The notes: generated by a model from the letters alone, not told the origin. Numbered from the stretch's first letter, positions 24,638 to 57,759 are shown. The stretch: 64,000 bases of DNA from an uncultured delta proteobacterium (GCA_963794325.1 CAWCDG010000004.1:1447302-1511301); one strand, 5' to 3'. Program-made: numbers and translations.

Positions 24638-24737
24638 CGCCTGCGCGGCGTGCGGCAGGGGTGACCCCTGCAGCTCACAGTATTAAGAAAAGAAATCGCA
24701 AAATCGCGCGGACGCGCTTTTGCTCTGAGGGTCGGGG
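24638..24737 (+). repeat. Intergenic repeat family R1, copy A
   Basis: CGCCTGCGCGGCG..GGCAGGGGTGACCCCTGCA..AGTATTAAGAAAAGAAATC-GCAAAA..TTTTGC-TCTGAGGGTCGGGGG. Shares both ends and the core with copies at 42473 and 41456. Confidence 0.8.
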
Positions 24738-24788
24738 GAGACGTTGACAGGGCGGGTTCTCCTCCACCACAATCGTCGCGATTCAACC

Positions 24789-25926
24789 ATGGCTCTTTCC
24801 GGTTTCAAGATCATCGACGCGGACGGCCACGTCACCGAGCCTGCTTCGCTCTACTCGCGCCATATCGATCCGAAATTCCGCACTGCCGCAGACGCTATAC
24901 TGTCGCGGATCGGACCCGGCAACCTCGGAATCGTTCCCGCGATGTATCCGAAGTGGCGAACGGCGGAGCGTCCGCTCGGCGAGACGAACGAAGTGTCTTG
25001 GCCTTGGCAAATTGCCGTCGGGCCGCAACCATCCAATGGCCTCGCCTGCGGGCGGCTTCGATCCCGCCGAGCGTATCCACGACATGGACAAGGAGGGCAT
25101 CGACGTTGCTGTATGCTTCGCGACGGTCGCGACCTCAGTATGCGCCGCGACTGACCCTGCGATGGAAGCCGCGCTCGCGCGTGCCTACAACCGATGGGTC
25201 GGCGAGTACTGTGGCGCGTTCCCTTCGCGAATCAAGGCGGTCGGCATTGTTCCGCAGCGCGAGATGCACCGATGCGCCGAGGAGGTCGAGTATCTCGCGC
25301 GCGAGCCGTGGGCAGTCGGCATCATGACCTTCGGCAATCTCGATGGGATGCTACCGGACCATCCTTATTTCGATCTGCTGTATAGAGCCGCGCAGGAGGC
25401 CGACTTGCCGATCTGTTTTCATGGCGGCACGGATCGGCCGCCGTTCGCGCCTGGCCGCGAGGATGTCGGCAACAACATGTTCATGATGCATCTGACGGGC
25501 CACGTCTGGCATCAGATGCGGGTGATGGCGGCGGCGGTCGGCGGCGGACTATTCGAGCGATACCCGAAGCTCAGGATGGGATTTTTCGAAGGCGGAATCT
25601 CGTGGGTGCCGTGGTGGGCCGAGCGGATGGACGCGCACTACAAACACTTCGCGCGTCACACGCCGCATCTGACGCGCAAGCCGTCCGAGCACATGCGCGG
25701 CGATCGATGCTTCTTCACGTTCGATCCCGACGAAGCGATGCTGCCTGAGGCGATGCGCTTGCTTGGTGCGTCACGCCTGATGTGGGCGTCGGACTATCCG
25801 CATTTCGACGCCGAGTTCCCCGACGCTGCCGAAATCGTCGTGAACAACCCGCGGTTGTCGAACGATGAAAAGCGCGCAATCCTCGCCGACAACGCCCTCC
25901 GCTTTTTCACGCGCATCGCCACATAA
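24789..25926 (+). pseudogene. Amidohydrolase-2 (ACMSD-like metal-dependent hydrolase), apparent frameshift near 24995-25015
   Basis: The N-terminus MALSGFKIIDADGHVTEP is in one frame (ORF 24744..25154). The rest (GGFDPAERIHDMDKEGIDVAVCF...WASDYPHFD) is in the +1 frame (ORF 25012..25926). Together they make one typical amidohydrolase. Confidence 0.7.
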
Positions 25927-25970
25927 GCCAACTTTCCAGACTCATTGAAGTAGTCGCGCCTTTGCCCTCG

Positions 25971-26129
25971 CCTCCCCCGTTCGTGGGGGGAGGCCGACGC
26001 GCGTCTTCGCGCGGCGGGTGGGGACCTTAGCTTCTGAATTTTTCCATTGCCAGAGAGGATGGCGCCGCACCAGACAATCGCGCGCCAATTGTCCCCCACC
26101 CTAACCCTCCCCCACGAACGGGGGAGGGA
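25971..26129. repeat. R2-type element: two inverted G/C-rich hairpins flanking ~110 bp
   Basis: Left end CCTCCCCCGTTCGTGGGGGGAGG...GGGTGGGGAC. The reverse complement of the right end is CCTCCCCCGTTCGTGGGGGAGGGTTAGGGTGGGGGAC. Confidence 0.65.
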
Positions 26130-26130
26130 A

Positions 26131-26222
26131 TCAGAAAAAGCGCGTCTGCGCGAATTTGCGATTTCTTTTTCTTAATGTTGGGTGCAGAGCCTGTCCTGAG
26201 CCTTGCCGAAGGAGGTCACCCC
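26131..26222 (-). repeat. Intergenic repeat family R1, copy B (long-core variant)
   Basis: The reverse complement reads GGGGTGACCTCCTTCGGCAAGGCTCAGGACAGGCTCTGCACCCAACATTAAGAAAAAGAAATCGCAAATTCGCGCAGACGCGC. It has the same core insertion as copy C and the same tail as copy A. Confidence 0.7.
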
Positions 26223-26571
26223 CCGCGACGGTGTCGATGCCGCCCGCCGCGCAGGCGTCTGGAATTTGCGTTAATGCGATCGGGAGCGGCTTTGAATATG
26301 GCGGGGAAAAAGTGCCGGCGCAGAGCGACTCGTTGGACCTGCGAGGCGCATCCGCGCCGGCGACGGACACGGGACCTTTTGTCACGATCGCGGCAAGCCC
26401 GCGATACGGCGGCGACTATATTCCGCAACTCATAATAAGTAAAACGGTCGCGATGAGCACACTGTGGACAAACGGGGAATCAAAGGAAACACAGACGCGG
26501 AGCGCCACGGCTATCAGCCGTATCGCTCCGCGCCGCTTCACTAATCAATCAGACAGGTGATGCGGACGCGC

Positions 26572-27870: not shown

Positions 27871-27992
27871 CAGGCATCACCTCCCTCCGTGATTAGAGTC
27901 AATTCTGGGTCTCGAAATTTTACGGAGTCAAGTATCTACCACCTAATATCATCAAAATGTGCATTAATTCTACTAATTGGCTGATACTGGGG

Positions 27993-34476: not shown

Positions 34477-34514
34477 GGTGCAAGTGCGGAAGGAGGGGAG
34501 TGGGAGAAGAACTA

Positions 34515-34640
34515 ATTAAATGTGAAACCCTTCGCGGGTTTCACGCTTCCGCGGCAGGGGTGACCTCCTTCGGCAAGGCTCAGGACAGGCTCTGCACCCA
34601 GTATTAAGAAAAGATGCGGGACTTCGTCCCTGTTAGAACT
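34515..34640 (+). repeat. Intergenic repeat family R1, copy C (with AATGTGAAACCC..GGGTTTCAC module and long core)
   Basis: ATTAAATGTGAAACCCTTCGCGGGTTTCACGCTTCCGCGGCAGGGGTGACC[TCCTTCGGCAAGGCTCAGGACAGGCT]CTGCACCCAGTATTAAGAAAAGATGCGGGACTTCGTCCCTGTTAGAAC. Confidence 0.8.
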
Positions 34641-34661
34641 TTTTGGGGCGGAGGGATTCTA

Positions 34662-36958: not shown

Positions 36959-37169
36959 CGCGGTGGAATATAGCGGAGCACGCGTCGCGCAGTCAGCAGG
37001 GGGAAGCCTGCGATTCGCGGCGGCGGGTCGCGAAGTGCTACCTTGCGTGCGGAAGATGGCGGGACCTGGTTTCAGTGGGGCGGGCCGCCGCGCCCGCCAT
37101 CTCTCCTCGAGGTTGCGGTCACGCGCTGCGATACTCTGTAGTGCGGCAGGCGTCTGCGGTAGAAGTAAA

Positions 37170-38550
37170 ATGAGTCACTCATCGGTAGGCGTGGGCGCGG
37201 ACGCCCGCGCGTCGACGGCGGGCACGGCGGCCCGCCCCACTATAAAAGTCAGGCTTCAGATAATTTTGTTCTTGTTCTCGCTGGCGGTGTTCCTGGCGGC
37301 GCCAGTCGTCGAGGTTTCCGATTCCCGATACACGGCTCTCCTGAGCGAGAGCTTGTTGCACCATCGGACGCCCAACCTGGACGAGCACTACAGGGTGCCG
37401 GTGCCGTGGATCACTGGAGACACTGCTGATCCTAAAGACGCGAACGAATACCAACTGGTCAAGGCGCGCGGCCACGTGACGTATTTCTTCGGGCACGGCA
37501 GCTCGATGCTGTCGATGCCGCTGGTAGCGGCGATGAACGCGGTCGGGATCTCGGCGGCGACGCAGGACGGACGCTTGAACCTGGCCGGTGAGATTCGAAT
37601 CCAGCGCGTGATCGCATCAGTCCTGATGGCGGCGCTGACCTGCGTTTTTTTCGCGATGGCGCAGATGATGCTGCCGCTGACCTGGAGTGCGGTGGTCGCG
37701 CTCGGCGCGTCGCTGGGATCGCAGATCTTGAGCACTGCGAGCTCGCGGCCTGTGGGCGCATACCTGGGAGATCTTCCTGGTCGGGTTGATAGCGCATTCG
37801 ATACTCAGCAGCGAGCATCGCGCCGCGCGACTCCGACCCGTGTGGCTGGCGACCCTGGTGGCATGGACCTACTACGTGCGGCCGACGGGAGCGATACCGA
37901 TAGTGCTCGTCAGCATTTACGTATTTTGGGTTCATCGCGAGGACTTGGTCGTGTCCGGCTGCGTACTCGCAGGATGGTTGGCGGCGTTTGTCGGATACTC
38001 GTGGACGATATTCGGCACGATCATTCCACCTTACTACTCAGCCTCGCGGCTGAAATTGTATGACCTGATAGTGCCGCTGGCCGGCAACCTGATTAGTCCA
38101 TCGCGAGGACTGCTGGTATATGTGCCGACCACGATCTTCGCGGTGTACCTGGCAGTGCGCTATCGCAAGGGTCTGGCGTACAAGCCGCTCGCAGTTCTGG
38201 CATTCGCCGAGATCATCGCGCTCGAGATCGTAATGTGCACTAACAAGGACTGGACGGGGGGATTTTGTTACGGGCCGCGATTTTTCACCGATGCAATCCC
38301 TTGGTTCGTGCTGCTTGCGATTCTCGGCCTGGATGCGATGCGCCGCGCGCCCGGCAGGTTGGGTCATCGGAGGGAAATTGTGGCGGCGATTTTCCTGCTG
38401 CTGGTGAGCGTCGCGATGAACGCGCGTGGTGCCTGGTCTTATGAAGCCCTCGATTGGAGTCTAGGCCCCTTCCATGCGCGTTCCCCCAGCATCTTCGACT
38501 GGCGCTATCCGCAATTCATGGCGGGACTGATCGAGCCGCCGAAGAACTGA
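37170..38550 (+). pseudogene. Polytopic membrane protein (possibly GT-C-like glycosyltransferase), apparent frameshift near 37732-37755
   Basis: ORF 36894..38063 is protein-like from MSHSSVG (ATG 37170) to ..GASLGSQILS, then degenerates. ORF 37786..38550 is hydrophobic and protein-like, and its frame is open from 37732 (ALRARGLWAHTWEIFLVGLIAHSIL). The function call is weak. Confidence 0.5.
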
Positions 38551-38559: not shown

Positions 38560-39504
38560 TTACCGCGCGAAGGCTACCCTCAATGCGTCGGCGGCCTGGC
38601 GCTGGCCTTCTTTGCCTTTGTCGAGACCGTCGGCGAAGCTGACGAAGCCGTGGGTGACGCCTTCATAGCGGGTGCAGGTGGTTTTGACGCCGGCGGCTAT
38701 CAGGCGCTCGGCGAATCGCTCGCCCTCGTCGCGCAGCGGATCGTGGCTGGCGGTCAGCACGAGCGCGGGCGGCAGGTTCTTCAGATCCTTTGCGCGAAAC
38801 GGGCATGCGTAAGGATTATTTTTTTCAGCGCTCGTATCGCAATAATTTTTCCAGAACCATTCCATGTCGGCGCGTGACAGGACGTAACCGTCGGCGGCGA
38901 ATTCCTTTTGCGAAGGAGTGTCGAGCGCGCAATCGGTGACCGGATACATGAGCAACTGAAAGTTGATACCGGGACCGCCTCGATCGCGCGCCATCATCGA
39001 GACTACCGCCGCCAGGTTTCCACCGGCACTGTCGCCGCCGACTGCGAGGCGCGAGCCGTCCGCGCCGAGCGAGGCCGCATTTTCGGCAACCCACTTGGTC
39101 GCGGCGTAGCAATCTTCGGCGCCGGCCGGAAAAACGTGCTCCGGCGCGAGCCGGTAGTCGACCGACACGATGACGCATCCCGCCTGATTCGCAAGCGCGC
39201 GGCATACCCGGTCGTGGCTTTCGAGATCGCCGAGCACCCATCCGCCGCCGTGGAAATAAACCAGCACGCCCATCGGCGGATTTCCCTCGGGCGTATAAAC
39301 TCGCGCGGCGATATTACCGTCGGCACCCGTGATGTGCCGATCCTCGACGCGATAGATGGCAGGCGGCGGAATCGGATTCGCTTCGAGCAGCGCGCGCATC
39401 TTGGCCCGCGCCTGCTCGGCGGTCTCCGCGCGCAGGAACATCGGGCCCGCGGCATTGAACACATCGAGCATTATCTTCATCTGGGGATCGAGGTCTTTAG
39501 GCAT
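38560..39504 (-). CDS. Alpha/beta-fold esterase/lipase, hormone-sensitive-lipase (Aes-like) family
   Basis: Oxyanion motif YFHGGGWVLGD, nucleophile motif GGDSAGGNLA, C-terminal HGF. Confidence 0.85.
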   Translation of the reverse strand: MPKDLDPQMKIMLDVFNAAGPMFLRAETAEQARAKMRALLEANPIPPPAIYRVEDRHITGADGNIAARVYTPEGNPPMGVLVYFHGGGWVLGDLESHDRVCRALANQAGCVIVSVDYRLAPEHVFPAGAEDCYAATKWVAENAASLGADGSRLAVGGDSAGGNLAAVVSMMARDRGGPGINFQLLMYPVTDCALDTPSQKEFAADGYVLSRADMEWFWKNYCDTSAEKNNPYACPFRAKDLKNLPPALVLTASHDPLRDEGERFAERLIAAGVKTTCTRYEGVTHGFVSFADGLDKGKEGQRQAADALRVAFAR

Positions 39505-39570
39505 GCGAGATCATTAGGTGAGGAGAGTCGAAGAGGCAAGCGGTAACGCGGCGCGGGAATCGAATGCGAG

Positions 39571-39816
39571 GCTGCGCGCCCCGCGCCCGCGGCAGGGGTG
39601 ACCCCTGCACCCAGTATTCGGAAACGAAAGATGCGGGACTTCGTCCCTGTTAGAACTATTTCGGGAAGAACGATCGAGGTGCATCTGCGCCGCTGGACAC
39701 GAGCACGCTTCGCGTCCTCGCGCCCAAAACCTCCTAACAGGGCGTCAGCCCGCATCTTTTTCTTTCTTAATACTGGGTGCAGGGGTCACCCCTGCCGCGG
39801 GTGCGGGGCGCGCAGC
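39571..39816. mobile_element. MITE-like structure: two R1 copies in inverted orientation (about 86-nt imperfect arms, 74-nt centre)
   Basis: Left arm 39571-39656 is GCTGCGCGCCCCGCGCCCGCGGCAGGGGTGACCCCTGCACCCAGTATTCGGAAACGAAAGATGCGGGACTTCGTCCCTGTTAGAAC. The reverse complement of right arm 39731-39816 is GCTGCGCGCCCCGCACCCGCGGCAGGGGTGACCCCTGCACCCAGTATTAAGAAAGAAAAAGATGCGGGCTGACGCCCTGTTAGGAG. No ORF or transposase. Confidence 0.7.
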
Positions 39817-39824
39817 CCCGCATT

Positions 39825-40589
39825 TCAATTCTCGAATTTGTGGAAGTCGGCGCGCCAGTGGGCGCGGAACCAGGGATCGCCGTCGCGCGAGCCGAATACG
39901 TCGGCGCTCACCAGCATGTCATTGCCGGCGATACGACAGTCGAGATTGGTGATCTCGTCAACCGCAAAGGTCGGCGAGAAACCATCCATACGCGTTTTGT
40001 ACTCGTTGAAGTCCAACCGCGAGCGCATCGTGGCGTAGCCGCGCCCGTCGGTCGAGATTGGCACGACCTGGCCGCGCGGATTGATAATCTTGTCGCTCGG
40101 CTCGACGCCGGTTTCTGTGAACGTGAGCTTGAACGGTTGATTGCCAACGCGCTGGTAGCAGAGACGATAAGTCTTTGGCGTCCAGAAACCGATTTTATGT
40201 GCGCCCGGCTCGCTCCTGATCCAATCGAGCTGACTAACCTCTCCCTGCCAGCATCCGCGGAACACTGCGGGCAGGGCCGGCGCTGCCTGCGCCGTCATCG
40301 GCGCGACGTTCACCGGCGGCGGTGGCGGTGCCGCGGGTTGAGGTTGCGCCGGCGCGGGCTTGTTCCAATTCGGCAGCAGTTGAATCGTGTTGCCGCCATC
40401 ACCGTTCGACGGCGCCAACCTGATTAGCGGCGGCTGACTCGGTGGAATATACGGTTGATTCTGATTCGAAGGTGCCGGAACCTCCATCGTGCTTTGCGCG
40501 CGAACGGATCGCGTAGCAATCGAAGCCAGTCCGCATAGAAGGGTGCACAATATAAGGATACGGGTTCGCATCGAGCGGCTCAGTTCCAT
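39825..40589 (-). CDS. Secreted hypothetical protein with a Pro-rich linker
   Basis: Signal peptide MRTRILILCTLLCGLASIATRSVRA, then a Pro/Gln-rich segment and a ~150-aa globular C-terminus. No family recognised. Confidence 0.55.
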   Translation of the reverse strand: MELSRSMRTRILILCTLLCGLASIATRSVRAQSTMEVPAPSNQNQPYIPPSQPPLIRLAPSNGDGGNTIQLLPNWNKPAPAQPQPAAPPPPPVNVAPMTAQAAPALPAVFRGCWQGEVSQLDWIRSEPGAHKIGFWTPKTYRLCYQRVGNQPFKLTFTETGVEPSDKIINPRGQVVPISTDGRGYATMRSRLDFNEYKTRMDGFSPTFAVDEITNLDCRIAGNDMLVSADVFGSRDGDPWFRAHWRADFHKFEN

Positions 40590-40741
40590 TCTATTATATA
40601 CGAAGCATATTCAGTGCCGCTTCATTCGGCAGATCGATGCGTAGATTGACCCCGTCGCGACGGCTACGATCAGAAAAAGATCCAACGGAGCGCGGCAATA
40701 TTGCTCAAAAAATCCGCGCGCGACAACGGAGCGCGGCCTGA

Positions 40742-41449
40742 ATGCTTGAAAAGAATCAAACCATAGATTTCGAAGCGGCGTGGGCTGTCAGCCAAGCGCC
40801 CGCGACCGGACGGCGCGCCCAGGCGCATCGATTGGCCAACGCGATGCGGCGGGTTATCGACCATCTGGTGCAAGTTGCGGCGCCAGAAGAAGATCTGTCG
40901 GCTGCGGCCGACGCCCTCGAGCGCTACGCGAAACGGTTGTCGAAGTATCCGATTTCGCGCAGTTACGAGGGGTTTGCCGAAAGCGCCAACGCCGGCGATC
41001 CGCATGCGTTTTTCGATCACAGCCCGCTGATTGGAATCTCGAATCCGCTCGCGCCGCCGATTCGGCTCGCGGTGATCGGCGACAAGGTCGAAGGGCGCGG
41101 TACGTTCGGCGTCGCGTATGAAGGCCCGCCGGGACATGTGCACGGCGGGTTTCTCGCCGCCGCGTTCGACGAAGTGCTCGGGATGGCGCAGTCGCTGACC
41201 GGCAATCCCGGGATGACCGGGACGCTGACGATTCGCTACCGGCGCCCGACCCCGCTGCTGACCGAGCTGGTCTTCGAGGCATACGTCGATCGCGTCGAGG
41301 GCCGGAAGATCTTCACGCACGGAACATTGTCGGCCAACGGCGTGTTGACGGCGGAAGCCGAGGGACTGTTCATCGCAGTCGGGCAGGAGCGTTTCGCCGC
41401 GATGGCCGCGATGGTGACGGAGCGCGCGAACCCGCCGCCAAAAAAATAA
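40742..41449 (+). CDS. PaaI/hotdog-fold thioesterase family protein
   Basis: GPPGHVHGGFLAAAFDEVLGMA...GTLTIRYRRPTP...EAEGLFI is a typical hotdog thioesterase core. Confidence 0.7.
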   Translation: MLEKNQTIDFEAAWAVSQAPATGRRAQAHRLANAMRRVIDHLVQVAAPEEDLSAAADALERYAKRLSKYPISRSYEGFAESANAGDPHAFFDHSPLIGISNPLAPPIRLAVIGDKVEGRGTFGVAYEGPPGHVHGGFLAAAFDEVLGMAQSLTGNPGMTGTLTIRYRRPTPLLTELVFEAYVDRVEGRKIFTHGTLSANGVLTAEAEGLFIAVGQERFAAMAAMVTERANPPPKK

Positions 41450-41455
41450 GACCTT

Positions 41456-41588
41456 CTGCGCGGCAATACACTTTATTTAATGTGAAACCCGCGGTGGGTT
41501 TCACGTTTTTCACGTTCCTTCGGCAGGGGTGACCCCTGCACCCGGTGTAGTCGCGAAACGTTGAGGACAACCTTTCGCTCTGATGGTC
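41456..41588 (+). repeat. Intergenic repeat family R1, copy E (with AATGTGAAACCC..GGGTTTCAC module)
   Basis: CTGCGCGGCA-ATACACTTTATTTAATGTGAAACCCGCGGTGGGTTTCACG..TTCCTTCGGCAGGGGTGACCCCTGCACCCGGTGTAGTC-GCGAAA-CGTTGAGGACAACC-TTTCGC-TCTGATGGTC. Confidence 0.8.
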
Positions 41589-41942
41589 AGCTGTCTGCCT
41601 AAAAACCGTCCTGTTACAGTGTAAGTTATCAGGCCTTCGATTCGGGTAGTTCTTACGCGCGAAATCTGACGTGTTATCAGGCTTATTCCCGGACCACCCG
41701 GCGAGTCTGAACATTCTTCCAATCGATAGGGTTCCAGATTCGCGGTGGTCCGATTCGAAACCCGCTGAATCCAAGTACTTTTCATTTTCATTGTGGCAGC
41801 GCTCTTGCTGCATCACAGTCGCGCTTTCCACTTTGGCGATCGGTAGAGATCGCTAATCCTGCTGAGTGAACGCGTCGGCGATATCAGAGGCCCATTTTAT
41901 CGCCGTGATTTCATTTATTGGGTCAAAATGTGAGGTAACGAT

Positions 41943-42389
41943 ATGACTCTAACCCGCAAAGTATTGGCTGCAGGAGCCGTCGCGGCCTTCGTCGCGTTCC
42001 CGATTTCCGGGGCCTTCGCTCAGAGCTCGGGCTCGATGAACGACAGCGGATCAGCGGCCTCGGCGCCGCCATCGGAGGGCGCTCCCGCGGCTGAGAATGC
42101 TCAGCCGGCTCCGGCTGCTGCCCAGGTAGATGATGCGACCCTGCAGAAGGCGGCCAAGGCCTACGTGAAGGTCAAACAGATTGTGCATCAAACGAAGCAG
42201 GCGGAGTCGGCCAGCAATGGTGCTACACCTGATCAGTCGGCTGCGCAGTCAGAGAAAATTGCGGCGGTGAAGAATGAAGGCCTGGATCCTCAGCAGTACG
42301 ATCAGGTCATCCAGATGGTTCAGAACGATCCCGGGCTTCAGCAGAAATTCGCGAACTACGTGAATCAGAACGGCGGCGACACCGACTAA
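41943..42389 (+). CDS. Secreted DUF4168-like protein
   Basis: Signal peptide. VDDATLQKAAKAYVKVKQI...NEGLDPQQYDQVIQMVQNDPGLQQKF resembles the two-helix-repeat pattern of DUF4168. SD GAGGT lies upstream. Confidence 0.5.
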   Translation: MTLTRKVLAAGAVAAFVAFPISGAFAQSSGSMNDSGSAASAPPSEGAPAAENAQPAPAAAQVDDATLQKAAKAYVKVKQIVHQTKQAESASNGATPDQSAAQSEKIAAVKNEGLDPQQYDQVIQMVQNDPGLQQKFANYVNQNGGDTD

Positions 42390-42417
42390 AGTCGGAGCGC
42401 CGACCGCCCTCGCAGAC

Positions 42418-42449
42418 GACCTCTCCCGCAGGATCCTGCGGGAGAGGTC
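42418..42449. terminator. Perfect 32-nt palindrome 29 nt after the DUF4168 stop
   Basis: GACCTCTCCCGCAGGATCCTGCGGGAGAGGTC. Belongs to the CCTCTCCC..GGGAGAGG hairpin class. No T-tract, so the terminator role is inferred. Confidence 0.4.
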
Positions 42450-42472
42450 GAAGGCGGAACTATAAGAATAAT

Positions 42473-42560
42473 CGCCTGCGCGGCGAGCGGCAGGGGTGAC
42501 CCCTGCACCCAGTGTGAATCGCGAAATGTTGAGGACAACCTTTCGCTCTCAGGGTCGAGG
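42473..42560 (+). repeat. Intergenic repeat family R1, copy F
   Basis: CGCCTGCGCGGCGAGCGGCAGGGGTGACCCCTGCACCCAGTGTGAATC-GCGAAA-TGTTGAGGACAACC-TTTCGC-TCTCAGGGTCGAGG. Confidence 0.8.
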
Positions 42561-42823
42561 TGAGGAGGGCGAACATAAAGCTGTGATGTTCGGCTTTCAT
42601 CCATCAGGGTGCGCAGCGGATGATCAACTAACCCTTCGCACGCGAAGAGACCTTTGCATAACTGGTCGCCGCCTCTTCCCCTCTCCCATCGGGAGAGGAT
42701 TAAGCTGAGGGACCTTATACAGCGCGCTTTTTTGAGCGCGATTCAAGATTCTGTTGCTCCTCTAATTCTATCGACCGAGGTTACGCGAAGGTCTCAAGGG
42801 AAAGGAGAACCGGATCTTTCTCA

Positions 42824-44512
42824 TTAGTCAGGACGCACCAGTCCGGATAGACCGGCGAACAGGAGGGGCGTGATCGTCCAGCCGGCCAAAATGTGTAGCC
42901 ATAGGTAGTATCTTAACAGGCGGCTGGGGAGGGAGCTGGCGTCGGGGGACTGGTCGGTGCGGGTTACTCGGCCGGATACGACGTGGCGCGGGTTGGGGCG
43001 CCAGTATTTGTCCTGGTGCAATTCGACTACCGGCAGGAAATTTTCCAGGGAATAGATCAGCGGATGGAAGACCGGATAATGCGGCGGCGCTTCTCCGGTC
43101 GCGACGAACTCGCGATAGGCGGCCTCCTCGGTCGGCGTGATGACGCGCATCCGATAGCCCCATCCGAATAGAATCGTGCCGAGGCCGACGAAACCGCCAA
43201 TCCACCAGAGCGCGCGCAACGGCACGTAGCCGAAGCCGATCGTCGATTGCATCACCAGGCTCCACGCCCGCCGCGCGAGGCTCTCATGGCCGAGGCGGCG
43301 CTGCGCGATTTCCTTGGCGATACGCACCTGGATCGCGCCGTCGTCGCGGCCCATCTCGCTTAAGACTTTTGCCAGTTGGCGATATGGCTGCGGATGGTAT
43401 TCCGCCGGTTGCAACCCGAGCCATCGCAAGCGCGAGTCGCCGTCGCTGGGACCGCCGGCGATGTCGTTGTACACGAAACCGTTGACGATCAGATTGCCGG
43501 GTGCAGGCCAGCTCTCCTCGTCATCCCAAATTGCGCCGGCGTGCGCGTCCTCGAGGTCGAGCACGGTCTTGGGTGTATGCTTCACCTCAACCCAATAGAA
43601 CGTGCCGTCGATAGTCGCGCGCTCGGCATCGAGTTGTCCGTCGCCCTTGAACTCGACGCCGTGAAAGCTGAGGTCGTGGCCGATCTTTGCCAGCCGCGCG
43701 TACACTATGCCGTCGGTGGTGAAGCCGTCGTGAAACAGCACGTCGCCGCCGACGTTGGTTTCGATCAGGTCAACGGCGTCGTAGCCGGGATTGGAGATTC
43801 GGGCGCCGGACAAGTCCAGGGTCCCGTCGATTCGCGCGCGCATGAAGCTAACGGGCCCGAACTCGCCCATCAAAAACGACGCGTCGCCGTGGATGTTCGC
43901 GAGGTTGCCGAAGATCGCGCCGGTGCGCGAGCGCCGCACGGTTATGTCCTGCAGATGGGCGGATAGCAGGTTGATTCCGTCGGGGAGGTAGCATCGGATG
44001 AGCGTCAGTGGCTTGTCGACGGTGGCGTAGGAGAGATCGAGATTGCCGGCAATTCGCGCGCCCGCCAGAGCCAGTCCGCTGGGATGAACGAATCGCGACG
44101 CATTGGGATCGCTGAGCAGCCAAACGACCACTTCGGCGCGGACGGTGCGATCGATTCCCCAAGTCTCGCCGTGCGCGGTATCGTTGGTGGCGTTATCGGT
44201 ATCGTCGCTGGGGCCGAACCACGGCACGTCGCGCAACGGCGCCGCATGCAGAAGTTTTCGTTCTGCCGCGCTAATCGAAGCGCCGAATTTCTGCTGCGCC
44301 ATCGCATTCAGCGCGACTTCCGAACTATTTCCACTTGAATCGGCCACGCCGGCCGCGGCCGCGAAGGACGCCGATGCTGTGACGGTCAGTAATGCGATCA
44401 CGATCGCCGCTGCGGATACTTTTCGACTTATGAATATCAGTGGACGCAAAGCTTTGATGCCGCGCAAGCGCGGTCGGTCGCATCGGGGAATATCAGCGGC
44501 GAGCCGAAGCAT
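42824..44512 (-). CDS. Membrane protein with a beta-helix-like repeat ectodomain and C-terminal TM helices
   Basis: Repetitive L.L.GA.I.G.L.L segments (LAGARIAGNLDLSYATV, RIDGTLDLSGARISN, ATIDGTFYWVEV), the conserved LIVNGFVYNDI, and C-terminal TM helices. I chose the start at ATG 44512 because the ORF start at 44746 overlaps the upstream gene. Confidence 0.5.
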   Translation of the reverse strand: MLRLAADIPRCDRPRLRGIKALRPLIFISRKVSAAAIVIALLTVTASASFAAAAGVADSSGNSSEVALNAMAQQKFGASISAAERKLLHAAPLRDVPWFGPSDDTDNATNDTAHGETWGIDRTVRAEVVVWLLSDPNASRFVHPSGLALAGARIAGNLDLSYATVDKPLTLIRCYLPDGINLLSAHLQDITVRRSRTGAIFGNLANIHGDASFLMGEFGPVSFMRARIDGTLDLSGARISNPGYDAVDLIETNVGGDVLFHDGFTTDGIVYARLAKIGHDLSFHGVEFKGDGQLDAERATIDGTFYWVEVKHTPKTVLDLEDAHAGAIWDDEESWPAPGNLIVNGFVYNDIAGGPSDGDSRLRWLGLQPAEYHPQPYRQLAKVLSEMGRDDGAIQVRIAKEIAQRRLGHESLARRAWSLVMQSTIGFGYVPLRALWWIGGFVGLGTILFGWGYRMRVITPTEEAAYREFVATGEAPPHYPVFHPLIYSLENFLPVVELHQDKYWRPNPRHVVSGRVTRTDQSPDASSLPSRLLRYYLWLHILAGWTITPLLFAGLSGLVRPD

Positions 44513-44687
44513 GCAAGCAAAGGAGCGCTGCGCGATTTCAAAACCGGAACCGGCTCCGCTATGGCGAAGCTGTCCGAGATCCTTCCTGCCGCTCGCGTTG
44601 CTCGCTCTGTCAGGATGACAAACAAAGCGAAAAAAAGCCGCGCCGGGATTAACCGGCGCGGCCTTCGATTGTGATTGATCGGATTGT

Positions 44688-45356
44688 TTAACCCCTGCGT
44701 TTGCGATGGTGAAGGGGCGTAGGCTTCGGCGGTATCGGGGCACCAATTATCGCGTTATCGATGTCGAAGCAGAACAGCCCTTCGAACGGCCCGGAGTGGT
44801 CCTCATCGCCTATCCAGATCGACATGGGATTCTGCGTGATCGAGGACAGGTCGAGCCCGGTCGCCTCGACGTTCATGGTCCAGGCACCGCAACCCTCGCC
44901 TACGGGAGGCGTCAAGATCCGGACGATTCGCGCAGATACGGTTTCCGGCCCATTAAGCCCGAAGAACGTTCCGTAGTTGGACCCGTTGACGGTATGAGAA
45001 ACGAATGGCTCGATATCGTAGTCGAACGGGAAGATCGGGAGAAGAGGGGTATACACGCAAGTTCCGGGAAGGTCGCAGGGGCAACTCTGCTGGGCGAGGG
45101 CGACTTCGACGCCCGACGCGATCGGATCATCCTTGCCATCGTCGCAATCATAGTCGGGATAGTCACCGTTGTTGGTGAAGGTGATATTGAAATTCGTGAA
45201 GTCAGCGTTACCTCCAACATGGACAATCTGCACTCGCTCGGGCCCCAGAGTAATTTCCCCGTTTGGAGCCGGTTGTGCCGATGCCGCGCGCGGCAACAGA
45301 CATAGGGCCACTGCACCCAAAGAACCGATTATCAGACCTTGCAAAGAGAATTTCAT
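44688..45356 (-). CDS. Secreted Cys-rich hypothetical protein
   Basis: Start at ATG 45356, preceded by GGGAGGG. Signal peptide MKFSLQGLIIGSLGAVALCLLPRAASA. Basic C-terminal tail HHRKRRG. No family recognised. Confidence 0.5.
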   Translation of the reverse strand: MKFSLQGLIIGSLGAVALCLLPRAASAQPAPNGEITLGPERVQIVHVGGNADFTNFNITFTNNGDYPDYDCDDGKDDPIASGVEVALAQQSCPCDLPGTCVYTPLLPIFPFDYDIEPFVSHTVNGSNYGTFFGLNGPETVSARIVRILTPPVGEGCGAWTMNVEATGLDLSSITQNPMSIWIGDEDHSGPFEGLFCFDIDNAIIGAPIPPKPTPLHHRKRRG

Positions 45357-54619: not shown

Positions 54620-56110
54620 TTACGGACGTCGCGGCATCTCGATGGCTCCCACGGCATACGCGACGGCCGCCGACGAGGTCAGCAAGTCGGCGCGGCTCTG
54701 GACGATCGTGTAGCGCGCGTTGGCGAGATCGCGATCGGCGGTCAGCAACTCGACGATGGTGCTGAGGCCCTGGCGGTAGGTGTCGAGGTTGGCGTCGTAG
54801 CTCTCCTGTGATGCGGCCAGCAGAGCCTTGGCATAGGTGTAGCGGCTGAGCGCGGTCTGGAACTCATAGTATGCGCGCCACACCGAGCTGATCGCGTCGA
54901 CCTCGAGCGAACGGAGCTGCGCGCTGGCAGCGTCGCGATCGGCCTCGGCCTGGCGGACGTCGTTGAGGCGTTTGAAACCGGTGAAGATGTCCCAGTTTAT
55001 CGACAGCAACGCGGCGTATTGCGGCTGGTTGTCGGTGACGGTGTGCGTGCCGTCAATCCGGTAGTTCCAGGACTGCTCGCCGTAGCTGCCCATCACGCCG
55101 ATGATGGGATAGAAAGCGTCCTTCCTTTGTTCGACTAAGGCGCGGCGCGCATCGAGAGTCGCGACCTGCGCTGCGAGATCGGGACGGCTGCGCACCGCGG
55201 TTTCGATCAATTGATCAACCTCGCTGCCCAAGCCGGCGGGAATCGGGATGCTGTCGAGGGTCGGCACGTCGAGCGCGGTGTTGGCGGCGACGCCCAACGC
55301 GACGGCCATGCTCGCCTGCGCTTCGCGCACCAGCAGGCGCGCGCTCGCGAGATCGTACTGCGACTGCGCGACGCGCTGGCGCGAGAGCAGCAACTCGGGC
55401 TGAGTTGCTAATCCGAGATCGACACGCCGGCTGACCGCCTCGTCATCGGTCTTCGCGAGTTCGACGTTCTGTTCCGCGGCCTGCACGGCGGCCTTCGCGG
55501 CGCCGATCGAATAGAACGAGCGCTGCGTCGCGAAGACGACGTCCTGCAACTTGCGATTGAACGAGAAGTTCGCGGCAGCCAACTGGTCGCGCGCGGCGGC
55601 GGCTCCGGCGCTGCGGCGGCCGAAGTCGATCAGCGTGTAAGTGAACTCTAGCGTCGGGGTTATCTGCCATTGCTTGAGCACCGCATTCTGGCCGGGCAAC
55701 TCGTACAGTTCGCGCTCGTAGCCACCTGGAACTTTCGCGTCCACGACCGGATAGAACGGCGCGCGCGAGGCTCCGTACGACGCAGCCGCGGCGCGAGCTT
55801 GCTCCCACGTCTGGCGGGTGTCGGGATTGTTGCTCAGCGCGATGTCGATCAGCGCGGACAGGTCGTACTGATTCCCGGCCGCGGTGGCGTGCGGCTCAGG
55901 CAGCGTGCTCGCCGGCCGCGCCTGCATCGGTATCGCATATTCGCTCGACTTGGGAATCCACGCGCGATCGGATTCCGCCGGCGCGAATTTGTCGGGATAC
56001 ACTTCGGGCTGCTCGGCAAAGTAGGAGCAACCGCCCGCGCACACCGCGAGGCCGAGTGTCGCTACGATAACCTGCCGTCGCGCGCGACTTATTTCGAAAT
56101 TCTTCTTCAT
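54620..56110 (-). CDS. Outer-membrane efflux lipoprotein (NodT/OprM-type OMF, MdtP-like)
   Basis: Start at ATG 56110 (MKKNFEISRARRQVIVATLGLAVCAGGCS, with a lipobox). Two OEP repeats with typical coiled-coil segments. Confidence 0.8.
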   Translation of the reverse strand: MKKNFEISRARRQVIVATLGLAVCAGGCSYFAEQPEVYPDKFAPAESDRAWIPKSSEYAIPMQARPASTLPEPHATAAGNQYDLSALIDIALSNNPDTRQTWEQARAAAASYGASRAPFYPVVDAKVPGGYERELYELPGQNAVLKQWQITPTLEFTYTLIDFGRRSAGAAAARDQLAAANFSFNRKLQDVVFATQRSFYSIGAAKAAVQAAEQNVELAKTDDEAVSRRVDLGLATQPELLLSRQRVAQSQYDLASARLLVREAQASMAVALGVAANTALDVPTLDSIPIPAGLGSEVDQLIETAVRSRPDLAAQVATLDARRALVEQRKDAFYPIIGVMGSYGEQSWNYRIDGTHTVTDNQPQYAALLSINWDIFTGFKRLNDVRQAEADRDAASAQLRSLEVDAISSVWRAYYEFQTALSRYTYAKALLAASQESYDANLDTYRQGLSTIVELLTADRDLANARYTIVQSRADLLTSSAAVAYAVGAIEMPRRP

Positions 56111-56203
56111 ATAGAATTCCCCACTGCTGCCGTTGAATCCGCTCCGCGCCATTGAATCCTGCAACGTGCTTTTGCACAATCCGGCGCGTACAATCTTCGA
56201 CGC

Positions 56204-56479
56204 ATGCAATCCAGCTCAACGCCCGGAATCAGACTCTCGCTACCACTAGCCGCCGCAGTCTCGATCGCCGGATGCGATCCCGTCGTCAATATCGCGGGCG
56301 CCAATTTCCCGAGTTGGCTGTTCTGCGCAATCTGCGGCGCGATCCTGATGATCGCGATTCGCCCGATCTTTGTGGTCACTCGCGTCGAGGCCTACCTGTG
56401 GCCGCTGCCGGTCGTGTATCTCAGCCTCGCGATCCTCATGGGATGCATCGTGTGGCTTGTCTTCTTCAATAGAATCTGA
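56204..56479 (+). CDS. ytcA: YtcA-family small lipoprotein (DUF1656-related)
   Basis: 91 aa. Lipobox SIAGC. GANFPSWLFCAICGAILMIAIRPI parallels E. coli YtcA GAYYPSWFFCAI. The stop overlaps the next ATG (TGATG). Confidence 0.65.
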   Translation: MQSSSTPGIRLSLPLAAAVSIAGCDPVVNIAGANFPSWLFCAICGAILMIAIRPIFVVTRVEAYLWPLPVVYLSLAILMGCIVWLVFFNRI

Positions 56480-57546
56480 TGAACACCGCGACCAGGATCG
56501 AGACCGAATCATCGATGCCACTGCGCTTCGCCGGCCGCGTGCTGAGCGCCGCGATCATAATCGCCACCATCGTCGTCGGGCTCTACGTCGCACGCCTCTA
56601 CTACCTGTATCCGCGCACCGACGACGCTTACGTTCGCGCCAACTCGGTCGGAATCGCGCCTCACGTGAGCGGGCCGATTACCGAACTGCCGATCGTCGAT
56701 AATCAGTACGTCAAGCAGGGCGAGTTGCTCTTCATCGTCGATCCGCGCCCCTATCAATCGGTGCTGGACGCTGCGGTCGCCAAGCTGCAATTGACCGAGC
56801 TCAATATCAAGGCGCTCGACGATGCGATCCGGACCGCGAAGGCGGATCAAGTACGGCTCGAAGCTGATGCGGCTTATGCCAAGCAGTACCTCGATCGAAT
56901 CCAGCCGCTGCTCGCCAAACATTTCGTCACTGCCAACGACGTCTTCAACGCGCGCTCACGGGTTAGCGCTGCCGAGGCCGCGGTGCAGGCGGCGCGCTCC
57001 AGCGTCGGTAAGGCGCAGAACGAACTGGGCCAGTACAAAGATATCAACGCGCTGCGCAAAGCCGCGGAGGCCGCCGTTTATGACGCGAAACTCAACGTCG
57101 GTTATTGCTACGTGCGCGCGCCGTACAACGGATGGGTCACGAATCTGAACATCGCAGAGGGCCAATACGCCAACGAAGGCCGCGAAGTCGTCAGCCTGAT
57201 CGACGATCGCAAGTGGTACGTCATCGCGAATTTCCGCGAGACGTTTCTCTCCCACATCCAGCCCGGGATGACTGCCGAGGTCTTCATCCTCGCCTATCCC
57301 AACAAGCGCTTTCGCGGACGCGTGCAAGGCGTCGGATGGGCGCTCTATCAGGAAAACGGCGCGACCGTCCAAGGCCTGCCGCAAGTCGAGACGACGCTCA
57401 ATTGGGTGCGCCTCTCGCAGCGCTTCCCCGTACGCATTGTACTCGAGGATCGCGACCCGAAGTTCCCGTTCAGGATGGGCAACACCGCCGTCGTAACAAT
57501 CCAGGGCTATCGCGATCAGGATGATCGCCAGCAACCTAACCCCTAA
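56479..57546 (+). CDS. HlyD-family membrane fusion protein (MdtN/AaeA/EmrA-like)
   Basis: 355 aa. N-terminal TM anchor, VRANSVGIAPHVSGPITELPIVDNQYVKQGELLFIVDPRPYQ, a coiled coil and a beta-barrel domain. The last 5 codons and the stop lie inside a 41-nt repeat. Confidence 0.8.
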   Translation: MNTATRIETESSMPLRFAGRVLSAAIIIATIVVGLYVARLYYLYPRTDDAYVRANSVGIAPHVSGPITELPIVDNQYVKQGELLFIVDPRPYQSVLDAAVAKLQLTELNIKALDDAIRTAKADQVRLEADAAYAKQYLDRIQPLLAKHFVTANDVFNARSRVSAAEAAVQAARSSVGKAQNELGQYKDINALRKAAEAAVYDAKLNVGYCYVRAPYNGWVTNLNIAEGQYANEGREVVSLIDDRKWYVIANFRETFLSHIQPGMTAEVFILAYPNKRFRGRVQGVGWALYQENGATVQGLPQVETTLNWVRLSQRFPVRIVLEDRDPKFPFRMGNTAVVTIQGYRDQDDRQQPNP

Positions 57547-57571
57547 CCGCTTCCCTCGAGGGAAGGGGAAC
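57531..57571. repeat. 41-nt repeat with a CTTCCCTCGAGGGAAG hairpin (copy 1)
   Basis: GCAACCTAACCCCTAACCGCTTCCCTCGAGGGAAGGGGAAC. It differs at one position from 62316-62356. Confidence 0.8.
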
Positions 57572-57646
57572 CGGATTTGAGGCAACATTGCGCCCCGTCC
57601 TATCCCCCTCACCCCCTTTCCCGCGGGAAAGGGTGAACAGAAAGAA

Positions 57647-57759
57647 CTTGAGAGCGAAATGTCGTCTTCGCCGTTTCGCGATTTCTTTCACTGGGTGCAG
57701 GGGTCACCCCTGCCGAAGGAAGCGTGAAACCCGCGGAGGGTTTCACATTCAATAAAGTG
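57647..57759 (-). repeat. Intergenic repeat family R1, copy G
   Basis: The reverse complement reads CACTTTATTGAATGTGAAACCCTCCGCGGGTTTCACGCTTCCTTCGGCAGGGGTGACCCCTGCACCCAGTGAAAGAAATC-GCGAAA-CGGCGAAGACGACA-TTTCGC-TCTCAAG. Confidence 0.8.

What the first reader, a model, noticed from the sequence alone, without database searches (positions are those of the whole stretch)
24638..57759. Modular intergenic repeat family (R1, at least 8 copies) whose hairpins keep pairing through compensatory substitutions
Seen: copies lie at 24638-24737(+), 26131-26222(-), 34515-34640(+), 39571-39656(+), 39731-39816(-), 41456-41588(+), 42473-42560(+) and 57647-57759(-). All are intergenic.

Modules:
- The shared core is GGCAGGGGTGACCCCTGCACCCAGT, a 7-bp hairpin. 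Two copies carry a 26-nt insertion inside it.
- An optional 5' module is AATGTGAAACCC-loop-GGGTTTCAC.
- The 3' module is a hairpin that differs in sequence but keeps pairing: GCGAAA..TTTCGC (copies E, F, G) versus GCAAAA..TTTTGC (copy A), and GGGAC-TTC-GTCCC versus GGGC-TGAC-GCCC in the two arms at 39.6 kb.

Inference: structure, not sequence, is under selection. That fits a REP/BIME-like or MITE-like element, or a family of small structured RNAs or terminators. I do not recognise it as a named family.
Basis: partly seen in the sequence, partly recalled or inferred. Interest (0 to 1): 0.65.

Follow-up and report, generated by a model that had tools for sequence, protein, structure and literature searches.

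The report
Three-hairpin mosaic repeat docked at gene ends
An uncultured soil bacterium (Candidatus Binatus) carries about 190 copies of a 90-130-base DNA element made of three exchangeable hairpins, usually starting right at the stop codon of a gene; it resembles the REP/BIME repeats of E. coli but shows no link to the transposase that moves those, so it is a new family of a familiar kind of bacterial repeat.

Summary
**Observation.** The eight window copies belong to a family of about 190 copies in this 4.45-Mb Candidatus Binatus genome. 29 of 33 genomes of the genus carry 49-217 copies. Other genera of the family carry only traces.

**Anatomy.** Each element reads: A/T-rich leader, hairpin H1 (three alternative forms), an almost invariant middle hairpin GCAGGGG-TGA-CCCCTGC with tail ACCCAGT, an A-rich spacer, then hairpin H3 (two alternative forms).

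**Covariation.** It is real: 98.8% of cells are paired against 93.6% in shuffles, and 66 cells show double changes against 20 expected. It is strictly Watson-Crick with no G·U excess, so it does not show that the structure is selected as RNA.

**Placement.**
- 169 of 173 canonical-core copies are intergenic.
- 73 of 113 copies that follow a gene start within 15 nt of its stop codon (13.9 expected).
- In many copies the stop codon lies inside the element's leader.

**Turnover.** Orthologous gaps show both old shared copies and lineage-specific insertions, and modules are swapped between species.

**What it is not.** It is not an Rfam family, an IS end, a canonical terminator or a classic MITE. 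It is not linked to a RAYT transposase, although two other hairpin families in the same genome are.

**Verdict.** A new REP/BIME-like mosaic repeat family whose mobilising factor is unknown. Interest is moderate.

The parts
24629..24740 (+). Copy A. Order: A-rich leader, 5' module M2 (CGCCTGCGCGGCG), core hairpin with a variant tail (GCAGCTCACAGT), 3' module T1 (GCAAAATCGCG-CGGA-CGCGCTTTTGC). M2 starts 23 nt after the stop of the YchF-like gene 23572-24615.
26131..26258 (-). Copy B. Order: M2, a ~17-nt insert (GCATCGACACCGTCGCG), core with a ~25-nt insertion, degenerate T1.
34503..34641 (+). Copy C. Order: 5' module M1 (GTGAAACCC-TTCGC-GGGTTTCAC), core with a ~25-nt insertion, 3' module T2 (GGGAC-TTC-GTCCC). 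M1+core is orthologous in six relatives, but their 3' modules differ.
39560..39657 (+). Copy D. Order: 5' module M3 (GCGAGGC-TGCGC-GCCCCGC), core, T2. It is the left half of a tail-to-tail pair that is absent from six relatives.
   Evidence: (I3)
39731..39827 (-). Copy E. Order: M3, core, T2 variant (GGGC-TGAC-GCCC). Its leader now supplies the TGA stop of gene 39825-40418 (- strand); five relatives have TAG there and no element.
41462..41588 (+). Copy F. Order: M1 (with a small internal duplication), core (tail CCCGGT), T1 (GCGAAACGTTG-AGGA-CAACCTTTCGC). The leader starts about 20 nt after the stop of the thioesterase gene 40742-41449. RNA fold z = -3.65.
42464..42557 (+). Copy G. Order: M2, core, T1. 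Together with F it brackets the DUF4168 gene 41943-42389, which has no orthologue at this position in seven relatives.
57644..57763 (-). Copy H. Order: M1, core, T1. M1+core is orthologous in G059, G049, G061, G021 and G022. G022 has a compensatory GCG/CGC change in H1. G018 keeps only a core remnant.

Best explanation
**What it is.** R1 is a lineage-specific, non-autonomous, composite extragenic repeat. It is a mosaic of three hairpin modules (H1, invariant H2, H3) in a fixed order and orientation. It is comparable in kind to the REP/BIME elements of enterobacteria, but it is unrelated in sequence and does not depend on a RAYT (REP-associated Y1) transposase.

**Shown**
- It has been inserted repeatedly at A/T-rich gene boundaries, above all directly at or after stop codons. 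Its A/T-rich leader often supplies the stop.
- Copies then persist across speciation.
- Modules are gained, lost or swapped.
- Stem complementarity in H1 and H3 is kept by compensatory change.
- H2, its loop and its ACCCAGT tail are held constant in sequence.

**Inferred**
- The invariant H2 plus tail is the recognition site of an unidentified trans-acting protein, either a mobilising or a binding factor. That factor differs between sub-lineages, because core-free genomes have 'dialects' with the same H1 but another middle hairpin.
- H1 and H3 need only to fold.
- Whether the fold matters as single-stranded DNA during mobilisation or as RNA in the 3' UTR is not resolved.
For: - **Abundance and range.** About 190 copies per genome. 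29 of 33 genus genomes hold 49-217 copies. There are only traces in the other 29 genera of the family and none in 16 other genera of the class.
- **One composite element.** The 5' and 3' modules are found almost only next to a core.
- **Covariation.** 98.8% of cells are paired against 93.6 ± 0.3 in shuffles. 66 cells have double changes against 20.3 ± 3.2. Slid-partner controls give 0-3. Core variants GG/CC, GC/GC and GT/AC are all paired. H1 shows a compensatory change at an orthologous locus.
- **Insertion and turnover.** The same gap is empty, filled in one orientation or filled in the other in different species. Pair D/E is absent from six relatives. Copy C is shared by six relatives but has different 3' modules. 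G061 has a 107-nt T2+X3 block that G059 lacks.
- **Docking at gene ends.** 169 of 173 copies are intergenic. 73 of 113 start within 15 nt of the stop against 13.9 ± 3.1 expected. Stop codons lie inside the leader. One copy starts 2 nt after a tRNA-Leu.
- **No RAYT link.** Only 13 of 47 genomes have any Y1 transposase hit. None of the 19 Y1 loci carries R1. G005, with 217 copies, has no Y1 hit. The CACAGGCT hairpin family does track its RAYT.
- **Dialects.**
Against: - No mobilising enzyme, no defined termini and no target duplication were found, so 'mobile' rests on comparative presence/absence only.
- A 99.3%-identical strain shows no polymorphism in five copies.
- About a third of copies (60 of 173) do not follow a gene in sense orientation. 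Some lie next to promoters instead, for example copies C and H.
- Gene calls came from my own rough caller.
- RAYT absence rests on six-frame Pfam PF01797 detection in MAGs that are partly incomplete.
- Copies within one genome are related, so the shuffle statistics overstate the number of independent compensatory events (roughly 7-10).
Confidence: 0.55

Rival explanations
1. R1 is a REP/REPIN population of the usual kind. Its cognate RAYT is either too divergent for Pfam PF01797, lies in unassembled parts of the MAGs, or has been lost recently in most lineages.
For: - It has REP-like features: a short GC-rich hairpin, high copy number and an extragenic position.
- 13 tail-to-tail pairs resemble REPINs.
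- Two real REP/RAYT systems live in the same genome, so the machinery exists in the lineage.
- G000 is only 85% complete.
Against: - None of the 19 Y1 loci in the genus has an R1 core within 1.5 kb, while 15 are flanked by their own hairpin family.
- 34 of 47 genomes have no Y1 hit. These include 94-98% complete genomes with 166-217 R1 copies.
- Loss of the RAYT is reported to be followed by decay of the REPIN population (10.1101/2022.05.22.493013). Yet 109 of 173 R1 cores are identical 25-mers.
- Only 14% of copies are in inverted pairs.
- There is no replication-strand bias.
Confidence: 0.15
2. R1 is kept mainly because it works as RNA in the 3' untranslated region. Possible roles are a stack of hairpins that protects the mRNA 3' end from exonucleases, stops or pauses transcription, or modulates translation termination when it lies within a ribosome footprint of the stop codon. 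E. coli REPs close to stop codons have been reported to do the last; that is my recollection of Liang, Rudd and Deutscher 2015, and I did not retrieve the paper.
For: - The position immediately after stop codons is far beyond chance.
- In co-directional gaps orientation is biased 65 sense to 37 antisense.
- Orthologous copies stay conserved while the surrounding spacer diverges.
- R1 sequence is present in soil metatranscriptome contigs.
- Full M1-type copies fold better than shuffles, z = -2.9 and -3.65.
Against: - No G·U excess over A·C (26 versus 23).
- No U-tract follows any hairpin on the sense strand.
- A third of copies are antisense to, or upstream of, the neighbouring genes.
- In the metatranscriptomes the R1-to-gene depth ratio is like that in DNA runs, and contigs carry no strand information.
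- An RNA role does not explain the sequence invariance of the H2 loop and tail.
Confidence: 0.2
3. R1 cores are chromosomal binding or uptake sites, either for a nucleoid or topoisomerase protein (as BIMEs are for IHF and gyrase) or as a DNA-uptake signal. On this view they spread by recombination between strains rather than by transposition.
For: - The exact 25-mer is conserved across species whose orthologous genes are only 80-85% identical in DNA.
- Sub-lineages have dialects.
- Cores occur on both strands around the chromosome with no replication bias.
Against: - About 1 copy per 23 kb is far sparser than known uptake sequences (from my knowledge of Neisseria DUS and Haemophilus USS).
- Cores are never found inside genes.
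- A 110-nt three-hairpin composite with fixed order is not needed for a binding site.
- New insertions of whole units at fresh sites need more than recombination.
Confidence: 0.07

Closest known systems
BIMEs (bacterial interspersed mosaic elements) built from REP/PU hairpins in Escherichia coli and relatives (from established knowledge: Gilson, Bachellier, Hofnung and co-workers)
   Same: - Extragenic, a few hundred copies per genome.
- A mosaic of a conserved hairpin with other short conserved motifs in set orders.
- Mostly sits after genes.
- Persists over long times.
   Different: - No sequence similarity.
- R1 strings three different hairpins in one orientation, rather than alternating inverted copies of one REP.
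- No RAYT link.
- The 5' end docks on the stop codon.
REPIN/RAYT systems (PMC3116915, PMC3337134, 10.1101/2022.05.22.493013)
   Same: - A short GC-rich hairpin repeat population.
- Vertically inherited within a lineage.
- Some inverted doublets.
- The same genome holds two genuine examples, the CACAGGCT and GGGCGGGC hairpin families next to Y1 transposase genes.
   Different: - R1 is not next to any Y1 gene.
- It is abundant in genomes without one.
- 86% of copies are singletons.
- It has a three-module build.
MITE-like elements co-transcribed with genes, e.g. Neisseria Correia elements and enterobacterial ERIC/IRU (from established knowledge)
   Same: - About 100-150 nt, non-coding and structured.
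- Dispersed in intergenic DNA.
- Presence or absence varies between relatives.
- Can alter gene ends.
   Different: - Single R1 units have no terminal inverted repeats.
- No detectable target duplication.
- No parent IS.
IS200/IS605-derived non-autonomous elements (PATEs), which have sub-terminal hairpins, no inverted ends and no target duplication (from established knowledge)
   Same: - Hairpins near both ends.
- No TIR and no long TSD.
- The 5' end lies next to a short A/T-rich sequence.
   Different: - They need a Y1 TnpA, which most Binatus genomes lack by Pfam search.
- R1 shows no strand bias relative to replication.
MIRUs of Mycobacterium tuberculosis (from established knowledge: Supply et al. 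1997)
   Same: - Intergenic repeats with a set orientation relative to the flanking genes.
- Their ends overlap the stop or start codons of neighbouring genes.
   Different: - MIRUs are tandem direct repeats carrying small ORFs in operons, not hairpin mosaics.
- R1 also lies in convergent gaps and after a tRNA gene.

Membership tests
REP/REPIN-RAYT | Short imperfect palindrome, extragenic, tens to hundreds of copies | tested here: met
   7-bp core hairpin. 173 canonical copies, 169 of them intergenic.
REP/REPIN-RAYT | A single-copy RAYT (Y1 transposase) gene flanked by the same REP, with the population tracking the RAYT | tested here: not met
   None of 19 PF01797 loci in 47 genomes has an R1 core within 1.5 kb. 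34 of 47 genomes have no hit, yet most are rich in R1. The CACAGGCT family, used as a positive control, does track its RAYT.
REP/REPIN-RAYT | The replicating unit is an inverted doublet (REPIN) | tested here: not met
   13 tail-to-tail pairs, that is 26 of 187 copies. The rest are singletons.
BIME | Mosaic of a repeated hairpin with other conserved motifs in a few fixed arrangements | tested here: met
   Three 5' modules by one core by two 3' modules in a fixed order. Modules rarely occur without a core.
BIME | Alternating inverted copies of the same REP (Y/Z types); homology to enterobacterial REP | tested here: not met
   Three different hairpins lie in one orientation. No match in plasmid records; E. 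coli genomes were not searched.
MITE | Terminal inverted repeats | tested here: not met
   The ends CACTTTATTGAATG... and ...GCTCTCAGGTTC / ...TGTTAGAAC are not inverted repeats. Only whole tail-to-tail pairs give long inverted arms (I3).
MITE | Target-site duplication | tested here: inconclusive
   Same-copy flanks share no more direct-repeat length than cross-copy controls, and duplications of 2-4 nt cannot be seen this way. There is one 23-nt duplication at a tRNA-Leu end in G015 and 'GAT' at both junctions of a module gain in G061.
MITE | A related autonomous IS with the same ends | tested here: not met
   The only IS-like long repeats (pairs of 1040 and 1386 bp) carry no R1 at or near their ends.
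IS200/IS605-derived element (PATE) | Y1 TnpA available in trans; strand-biased insertion relative to replication | tested here: not met
   A Y1 hit in only 13 of 47 genomes. Orientation is 25+/17- left and 35+/26- right of the GC-skew minimum of C4.
Known structured RNA families (Rfam 15) | Match to a covariance model | tested here: not met
   At gathering thresholds the window yields only a tRNA. At E<=5 over 39400-42700 there is nothing on copies D-G.
Intrinsic (Rho-independent) terminator | GC-rich hairpin directly followed by a T-run on the transcribed strand | tested here: not met
   No R1 hairpin is flagged on its own strand. H1, M2 and T2 are flagged only on the opposite strand, because of the A-rich leaders.

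The most novel reading that the evidence does not exclude
R1 may be a RAYT-independent class of mobile hairpin cassette that homes to the 3' ends of genes: protein stop codons and at least one tRNA end. On this reading it is recognised through its invariant middle hairpin by a still-unknown factor that co-evolves with it, which would explain the lineage 'dialects' that keep H1 but carry another middle hairpin. By bringing its own stop codons it would rewrite C-termini and 3' UTRs across a whole genus.
Probability: 0.2. Interest if true: 0.7.

Novelty: new variant of a known kind. Interest (0 to 1): 0.45.

Why it matters
**A natural contrast.** Binatota are abundant, uncultured soil bacteria, and I found no paper that describes repeats in them. 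This genome holds two textbook REPIN/RAYT systems and, beside them, a larger hairpin-repeat family that behaves differently. That family has no transposase link, a three-module build and precise docking at stop codons. Having both in one genome makes it easier to ask how RAYT-independent extragenic repeats spread and persist.

**Practical consequences**
- The family explains much of the unusually long intergenic DNA in these genomes.
- It breaks short-read assemblies: contigs end at R1.
- It changes annotated gene ends, because stop codons are supplied by the repeat.
- It gives a genus-specific marker sequence.

Tried and rejected
- **Small ORF in the element.** ATG-TGA in the leader, an 18-codon frame in M3 copies and a 14-codon frame in GCGGAACCC copies were considered. 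Frames and starts are not consistent between module types, so I rejected it from the sequences.
- **Element closes all three reading frames.** True for only 69 of 140 copies against 54.7 ± 5.5 in shuffles. I dropped it as a defining trait. The leader does close at least one frame in 99% of copies.
- **Long-range helix between leader (TCACT) and tail (AGTGA).** Within-copy complementarity is 4.70 against 4.51 ± 0.06 cross-copy, which equals the maximum of 300 shuffles. RNAalifold does not predict it. Left as inconclusive.
- **Empty sites from close strains.** The only exact-protein contig (99.3% identical) has all the same copies. Short-read metagenome contigs break at the repeats and give no clean joints.
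- **Transcription.** Metatranscriptome contigs contain R1, but at a depth ratio like DNA and without strand information. Unresolved.
- **Gene between copies A and B as a mobilising enzyme.** It is an ordinary amidohydrolase.
- **Inversion of that gene by recombination between A and B.** The gene is inverted in G049 and G021, but the repeat arrangement does not fit a simple inversion. Not resolved.
- **Integron attC sites, CRISPR, uptake sequences.** Rejected on dispersal on both strands behind housekeeping genes, on copy density and on absence from coding DNA.
- **Horizontal vectors.** 2 of 2.9 million viral contigs and no plasmid record carry it.
Full report
**1. Observation**

All eight copies are in the window as written, and nhmmer profiles of every module find no ninth copy. 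The window is C4:1447302-1511301 of a 4.45-Mb, 60% G+C assembly. Record titles of orthologous loci place it in Candidatus Binatus (Binataceae, Binatota), an uncultured soil lineage.

The 25-nt core occurs 109 times exactly and 173 times with up to 3 mismatches in the genome. A pattern that allows the inner stem pairs and loop to vary finds 187 oriented copies. The reversed pattern gives zero in every genome searched, so the repeat is not a chance or composition effect.

**2. Anatomy**

Reading all copies in register gives one composite element, in this order:

- **Leader.** An A/T-rich leader, typically (GGGAAGGGGAAAT)CACTTTATTGAATG.
- **H1.** It comes in three alternative forms:
  - M1: GTGAAACCC-loop-GGGTTTCAC, about 125-140 copies.
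  - M2: CGCCTGCGCGGCG, about 26-30 copies.
  - M3: GCGGGGC-loop-GCCCCGC, about 14 copies.
- **Linker.** GCTTCC(GC/TTC).
- **H2 (the core).** GCAGGGG-TGA-CCCCTGC with tail ACCCAGT.
- **Spacer.** An A-rich spacer.
- **H3.** It comes in two forms:
  - T1: GCRAAAnnnnn-AGGA-nnnnnTTTYGC followed by TCTCAGGTTC.
  - T2: GCGGGRC-TTC-GYCCC followed by TGTTAGAAC.

M1 and M3 share the same flanks (ATTGAATG ... C.C..CC.C) but have wholly different stems.

The 5' and 3' modules almost never occur without a core:

| Module | Copies next to a canonical core |
|---|---|
| T1 | 78 of 89 |
| T2 | 47 of 59 |
| M2 | 27 of 32 |
| M3 | 13 of 14 |

The listed remaining T1, T2, M2 and M3 copies sit next to variant or insert-bearing cores, apart from one stray T2 hit. 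R1 is therefore one element with exchangeable parts, not a chance pile-up of free modules.

Some copies carry extra hairpin-forming inserts inside a loop. Window copies B and C have them in the core. A T2 variant has one elsewhere in the genome and in G061.

**3. Structure**

RNAalifold on 52 distinct M1-core-T1 copies gives three separate hairpins and no enclosing helix. 7 of 25 pairs show changes on both sides. Counting on that structure gives:

| Measure | Observed | Control |
|---|---|---|
| Cells paired | 98.8% | 93.6 ± 0.3% in shuffles (0 of 500 reach it) |
| Cells with a double change | 66 | 20.3 ± 3.2 in shuffles (0 of 500 reach it) |
| Double-change cells with slid partners | - | 0-3 |

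- The core also covaries. GG-TGA-CC occurs 162 times, GC-TAA-GC 12, GG-TAA-CC 6 and GT-TAA-AC 6, and all are paired.
- At the orthologous locus of copy H, G022 has GCGAAACCC...GGGTTTCGC where its relatives have GTG...CAC.

Two cautions apply:

- Copies within one genome are related, so the number of independent events is perhaps 7-10 rather than 66.
- Pairing is strictly Watson-Crick. Over all hairpins, G·T mismatches (26) do not exceed A·C mismatches (23). Nothing therefore indicates that the fold is selected in one RNA strand rather than as palindromic DNA.

Folding energies beat shuffles clearly only for full M1-type copies, with z = -3.65 for F and -2.9 for H.

H2's loop and tail are conserved in sequence, and they change together in the TAA/ACCTTAG sub-family. 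That points to sequence-specific recognition there.

**4. Where it sits**

My own codon-usage gene caller places 169 of 173 canonical cores between genes.

| Gap type | Share of copies | Share of intergenic DNA |
|---|---|---|
| Convergent | 28% | 17% |
| Divergent | 12% | 24% |

- In co-directional gaps, 65 copies are in sense and 37 in antisense.
- When the gene on the element's 5' side points toward it (113 copies), the stop codon lies a median 57 nt before the core for M1 copies, whose module is about 46 nt. For M2 copies it lies 29 nt before the core, and that module is about 22 nt.
- 73 of 113 elements start within 15 nt of the stop. Uniform placement within the same gaps predicts 13.9 ± 3.1, with a maximum of 27 in 5000 simulations.
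- Free space is 11 nt on the 5' side against 168 nt on the 3' side.
- Often the reading frame runs into the leader and ends at one of its own stops: GGGTAAATCAC, CTTGATT, ATTGAAT or ATGTGA (a loose heuristic).
- The clean case is copy E. Five relatives end the gene ...GAGAAT TAG with no element. The window reads ...GAGAAT TGA AATGCGGGGC..., so the stop lies inside the leader.
- In G015 an H1+core unit starts 2 nt after tRNA-Leu(GAG) and is followed by a 23-nt repeat of the tRNA end. In G000, one of 39 tRNAs, also a tRNA-Leu, is followed by R1.
- About a third of copies instead face a gene start. In copy H the leader ends 12 nt from a TTGACC -35-like hexamer.

The simplest reading is a preference for short A/T-rich sequence. 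In a 60% G+C genome such sequence is concentrated at gene boundaries. I could not test this directly.

**5. Movement and age**

- **Independent insertions in one gap.** Downstream of the orthologue of gene 42824-44746, different species differ:
  - L025 and L011 have an empty gap.
  - L021 has only another repeat family.
  - L031, L005 and L006 have M1-core-T1 on the gene's strand.
  - L008, L024 and L029 have M2 forms.
  - The window has M2-core-T1 on the other strand.
- **Lineage-specific insertions.** In 36 kb of conserved synteny with seven relatives:
  - The D/E pair is absent from all six comparable gaps. Five of them measure 53-100 nt (G059's is 742 nt of other sequence) against 320 nt in the window.
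  - F and G, with the DUF4168 gene between them, are window-specific at this position.
- **Old shared copies.** Copies C and H are shared at the same place and orientation by most relatives, so copies can outlive speciation.
- **Module exchange.** At copy C the 3' module differs between species. The window and G018 have T2, G049 and G021 have T1, and G059 and G009 have none. G061 has a T2-with-insert plus another repeat as a 107-nt block, relative to the nearly identical flanks of G059. Modules are therefore added or exchanged separately.
- **Decay.** G018 keeps only a core remnant at locus H.
- **Stability at strain level.** A 99.3%-identical strain has all five copies in the compared stretch unchanged.
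- **Termini.** Flanks show no long target duplication.

**6. What it is not**

- **A known RNA family.** Rfam gives nothing at gathering thresholds or at E<=5.
- **An IS end.** The few IS-like long repeats do not carry R1.
- **An intrinsic terminator.** No hairpin is followed by a T-run on the element's strand.
- **A RAYT-linked REP.**
  - The genome has two Y1 transposase genes. One is nested among GTGGCACAGGCTTnAGCCTGTGA hairpins and the other among GGGCGGGC...GCCCGCCC hairpins.
  - Across the genus, 15 of 19 Y1 loci are flanked by one of these two families and none by R1.
  - Only 13 of 47 genomes have a Y1 hit, and genomes with 166-217 R1 copies have none.
  - The CACAGGCT family behaves as a REPIN population should. 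It is patchy, it is highest where its RAYT is, and it occurs mostly as ~52-nt inverted doublets.
  - The literature reports that REPINs need a RAYT and decay after its loss (10.1101/2022.05.22.493013; PMC3116915).
- **Strand-biased relative to replication.** Orientation does not flip at the GC-skew minimum.
- **Carried by a mobilising gene or a vector.** Neighbouring genes are ordinary. Viral contigs and plasmids do not carry it.

**7. Range and dialects**

- 29 of 33 genus genomes carry 49-217 copies. G020 has 6, and G010, G017 and G019 have none.
- The other 29 genera of the family have at most 16 copies. 16 genera from other families of the class have none.
- The core-free genomes are among the most divergent in the genus, at 70-74% DNA identity in a shared gene.
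- They still carry the H1 hairpin with compensatory outer pairs (GC..GC, CT..AG, TT..AA) and the GCTTCCC linker, and G017 also has T2. A different middle hairpin takes the place of the core.
- The family is therefore broader than its canonical core. The middle hairpin is the lineage-specific part.

**8. Mechanism**

- **Shown.** Repeated insertion at gene boundaries, long persistence, module exchange, maintenance of stem complementarity and sequence invariance of H2.
- **Inferred.** An unidentified trans factor reads H2 plus its tail, and H1 and H3 only need to fold. Placement follows from a preference for A/T-rich targets combined with tolerance at gene 3' ends, helped by the leader's stop codons.
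- **Not resolved.** Whether the RNA has a role in the 3' UTR. Metatranscriptome contigs contain R1 but are uninformative.

**9. Verdict**

This is a real, abundant, genus-wide repeat family and a new variant of the REP/BIME/MITE kind. It is distinguished by a three-hairpin modular build, independence from RAYT and docking at stop codons. Interest is moderate.

Noticed in passing
window 37070-37098 and 37189-37246; G000 C4:486313-486816: There is a second hairpin repeat family, GGGCGGGC-loop-GCCCGCCCCACT, with about 56 pattern hits in the genome. It flanks a RAYT-like Y1 transposase ORF here and in 9 loci of other Binatus genomes, so it is probably a genuine REP/RAYT system.
   Followed up: partly
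G000 C4:286748-287293 and flanks (outside the window): A RAYT-like ORF of 181 aa is nested among many GTGGCACAGGCTTnAGCCTGTGA hairpins. That family has 80 hits in G000, is patchy across the genus and occurs mostly as ~52-nt inverted doublets. It often lies just 3' of R1 copies. It is a textbook REPIN/RAYT system in Binatota.
   Followed up: yes
window 57529-57579 and 62314-62363: Another family, GAACCTAACCCCTAACCCCTTCCC-loop-GGGAAGGGGAAC, has about 286 pattern hits in the genome. It also sits on gene ends: the TAA stops of ORFs 56479-57546 and 61812-62324 lie inside the repeat. Docking at stop codons is therefore not unique to R1 in this genome.
   Followed up: partly
window 44494-44640 (- strand): A ~105-nt element (TGTGTCATCCTGAC..GAGCAACGCGAGCGGCAGGAAGGATCTCGGACAGCTTCGCG..CGCGAAGCCGGTTCCGGTTTCTGAAATCGCGCAGCGCTCC) lies upstream of the real start of gene 42824-44401. 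It has about 25 full or partial copies in G000 and many in every genus genome at ~90% identity. It is another modular intergenic repeat, not a gene-specific leader.
   Followed up: partly
window 24638-26260 (gene 25036-25926): The amidohydrolase gene bracketed by inverted R1 copies A and B lies in the opposite orientation in G049 and G021. The repeat arrangement there differs and does not fit a simple inversion between A and B.
   Followed up: partly
window 41943-42389: The DUF4168 gene between direct R1 copies F and G has no orthologue at this position in seven syntenic relatives, whose gaps include three of only 72-97 nt. It is present downstream of the same neighbour in other species (L005, L011, L021, L025, L031).
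   Followed up: partly
L069 (G015:C69) 1413-1580: An H1+core unit starts 2 nt after tRNA-Leu(GAG) and is followed by a 23-nt direct repeat of the tRNA 3' end (CAAGTCCCGCTCCGCGCACCAAC). This is the only long flanking duplication seen. Two bases of the core read N in the record.
   Followed up: partly
G041:C9:5441-5654: Three canonical cores lie at exact 96-nt spacing on one strand, so R1 can also occur as a short tandem array in a relative.
   Followed up: no
window 57775-57835: A sigma-70-like promoter (TTGACC, 18 nt, TTTAAT) lies 8 nt before an ATG and is conserved in seven relatives. The real start of the gene called at 58116 is therefore probably near 57830, perhaps on a leaderless or short-leader mRNA. 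The 5' end of R1 copy H lies 12 nt upstream of the -35 hexamer.
   Followed up: no
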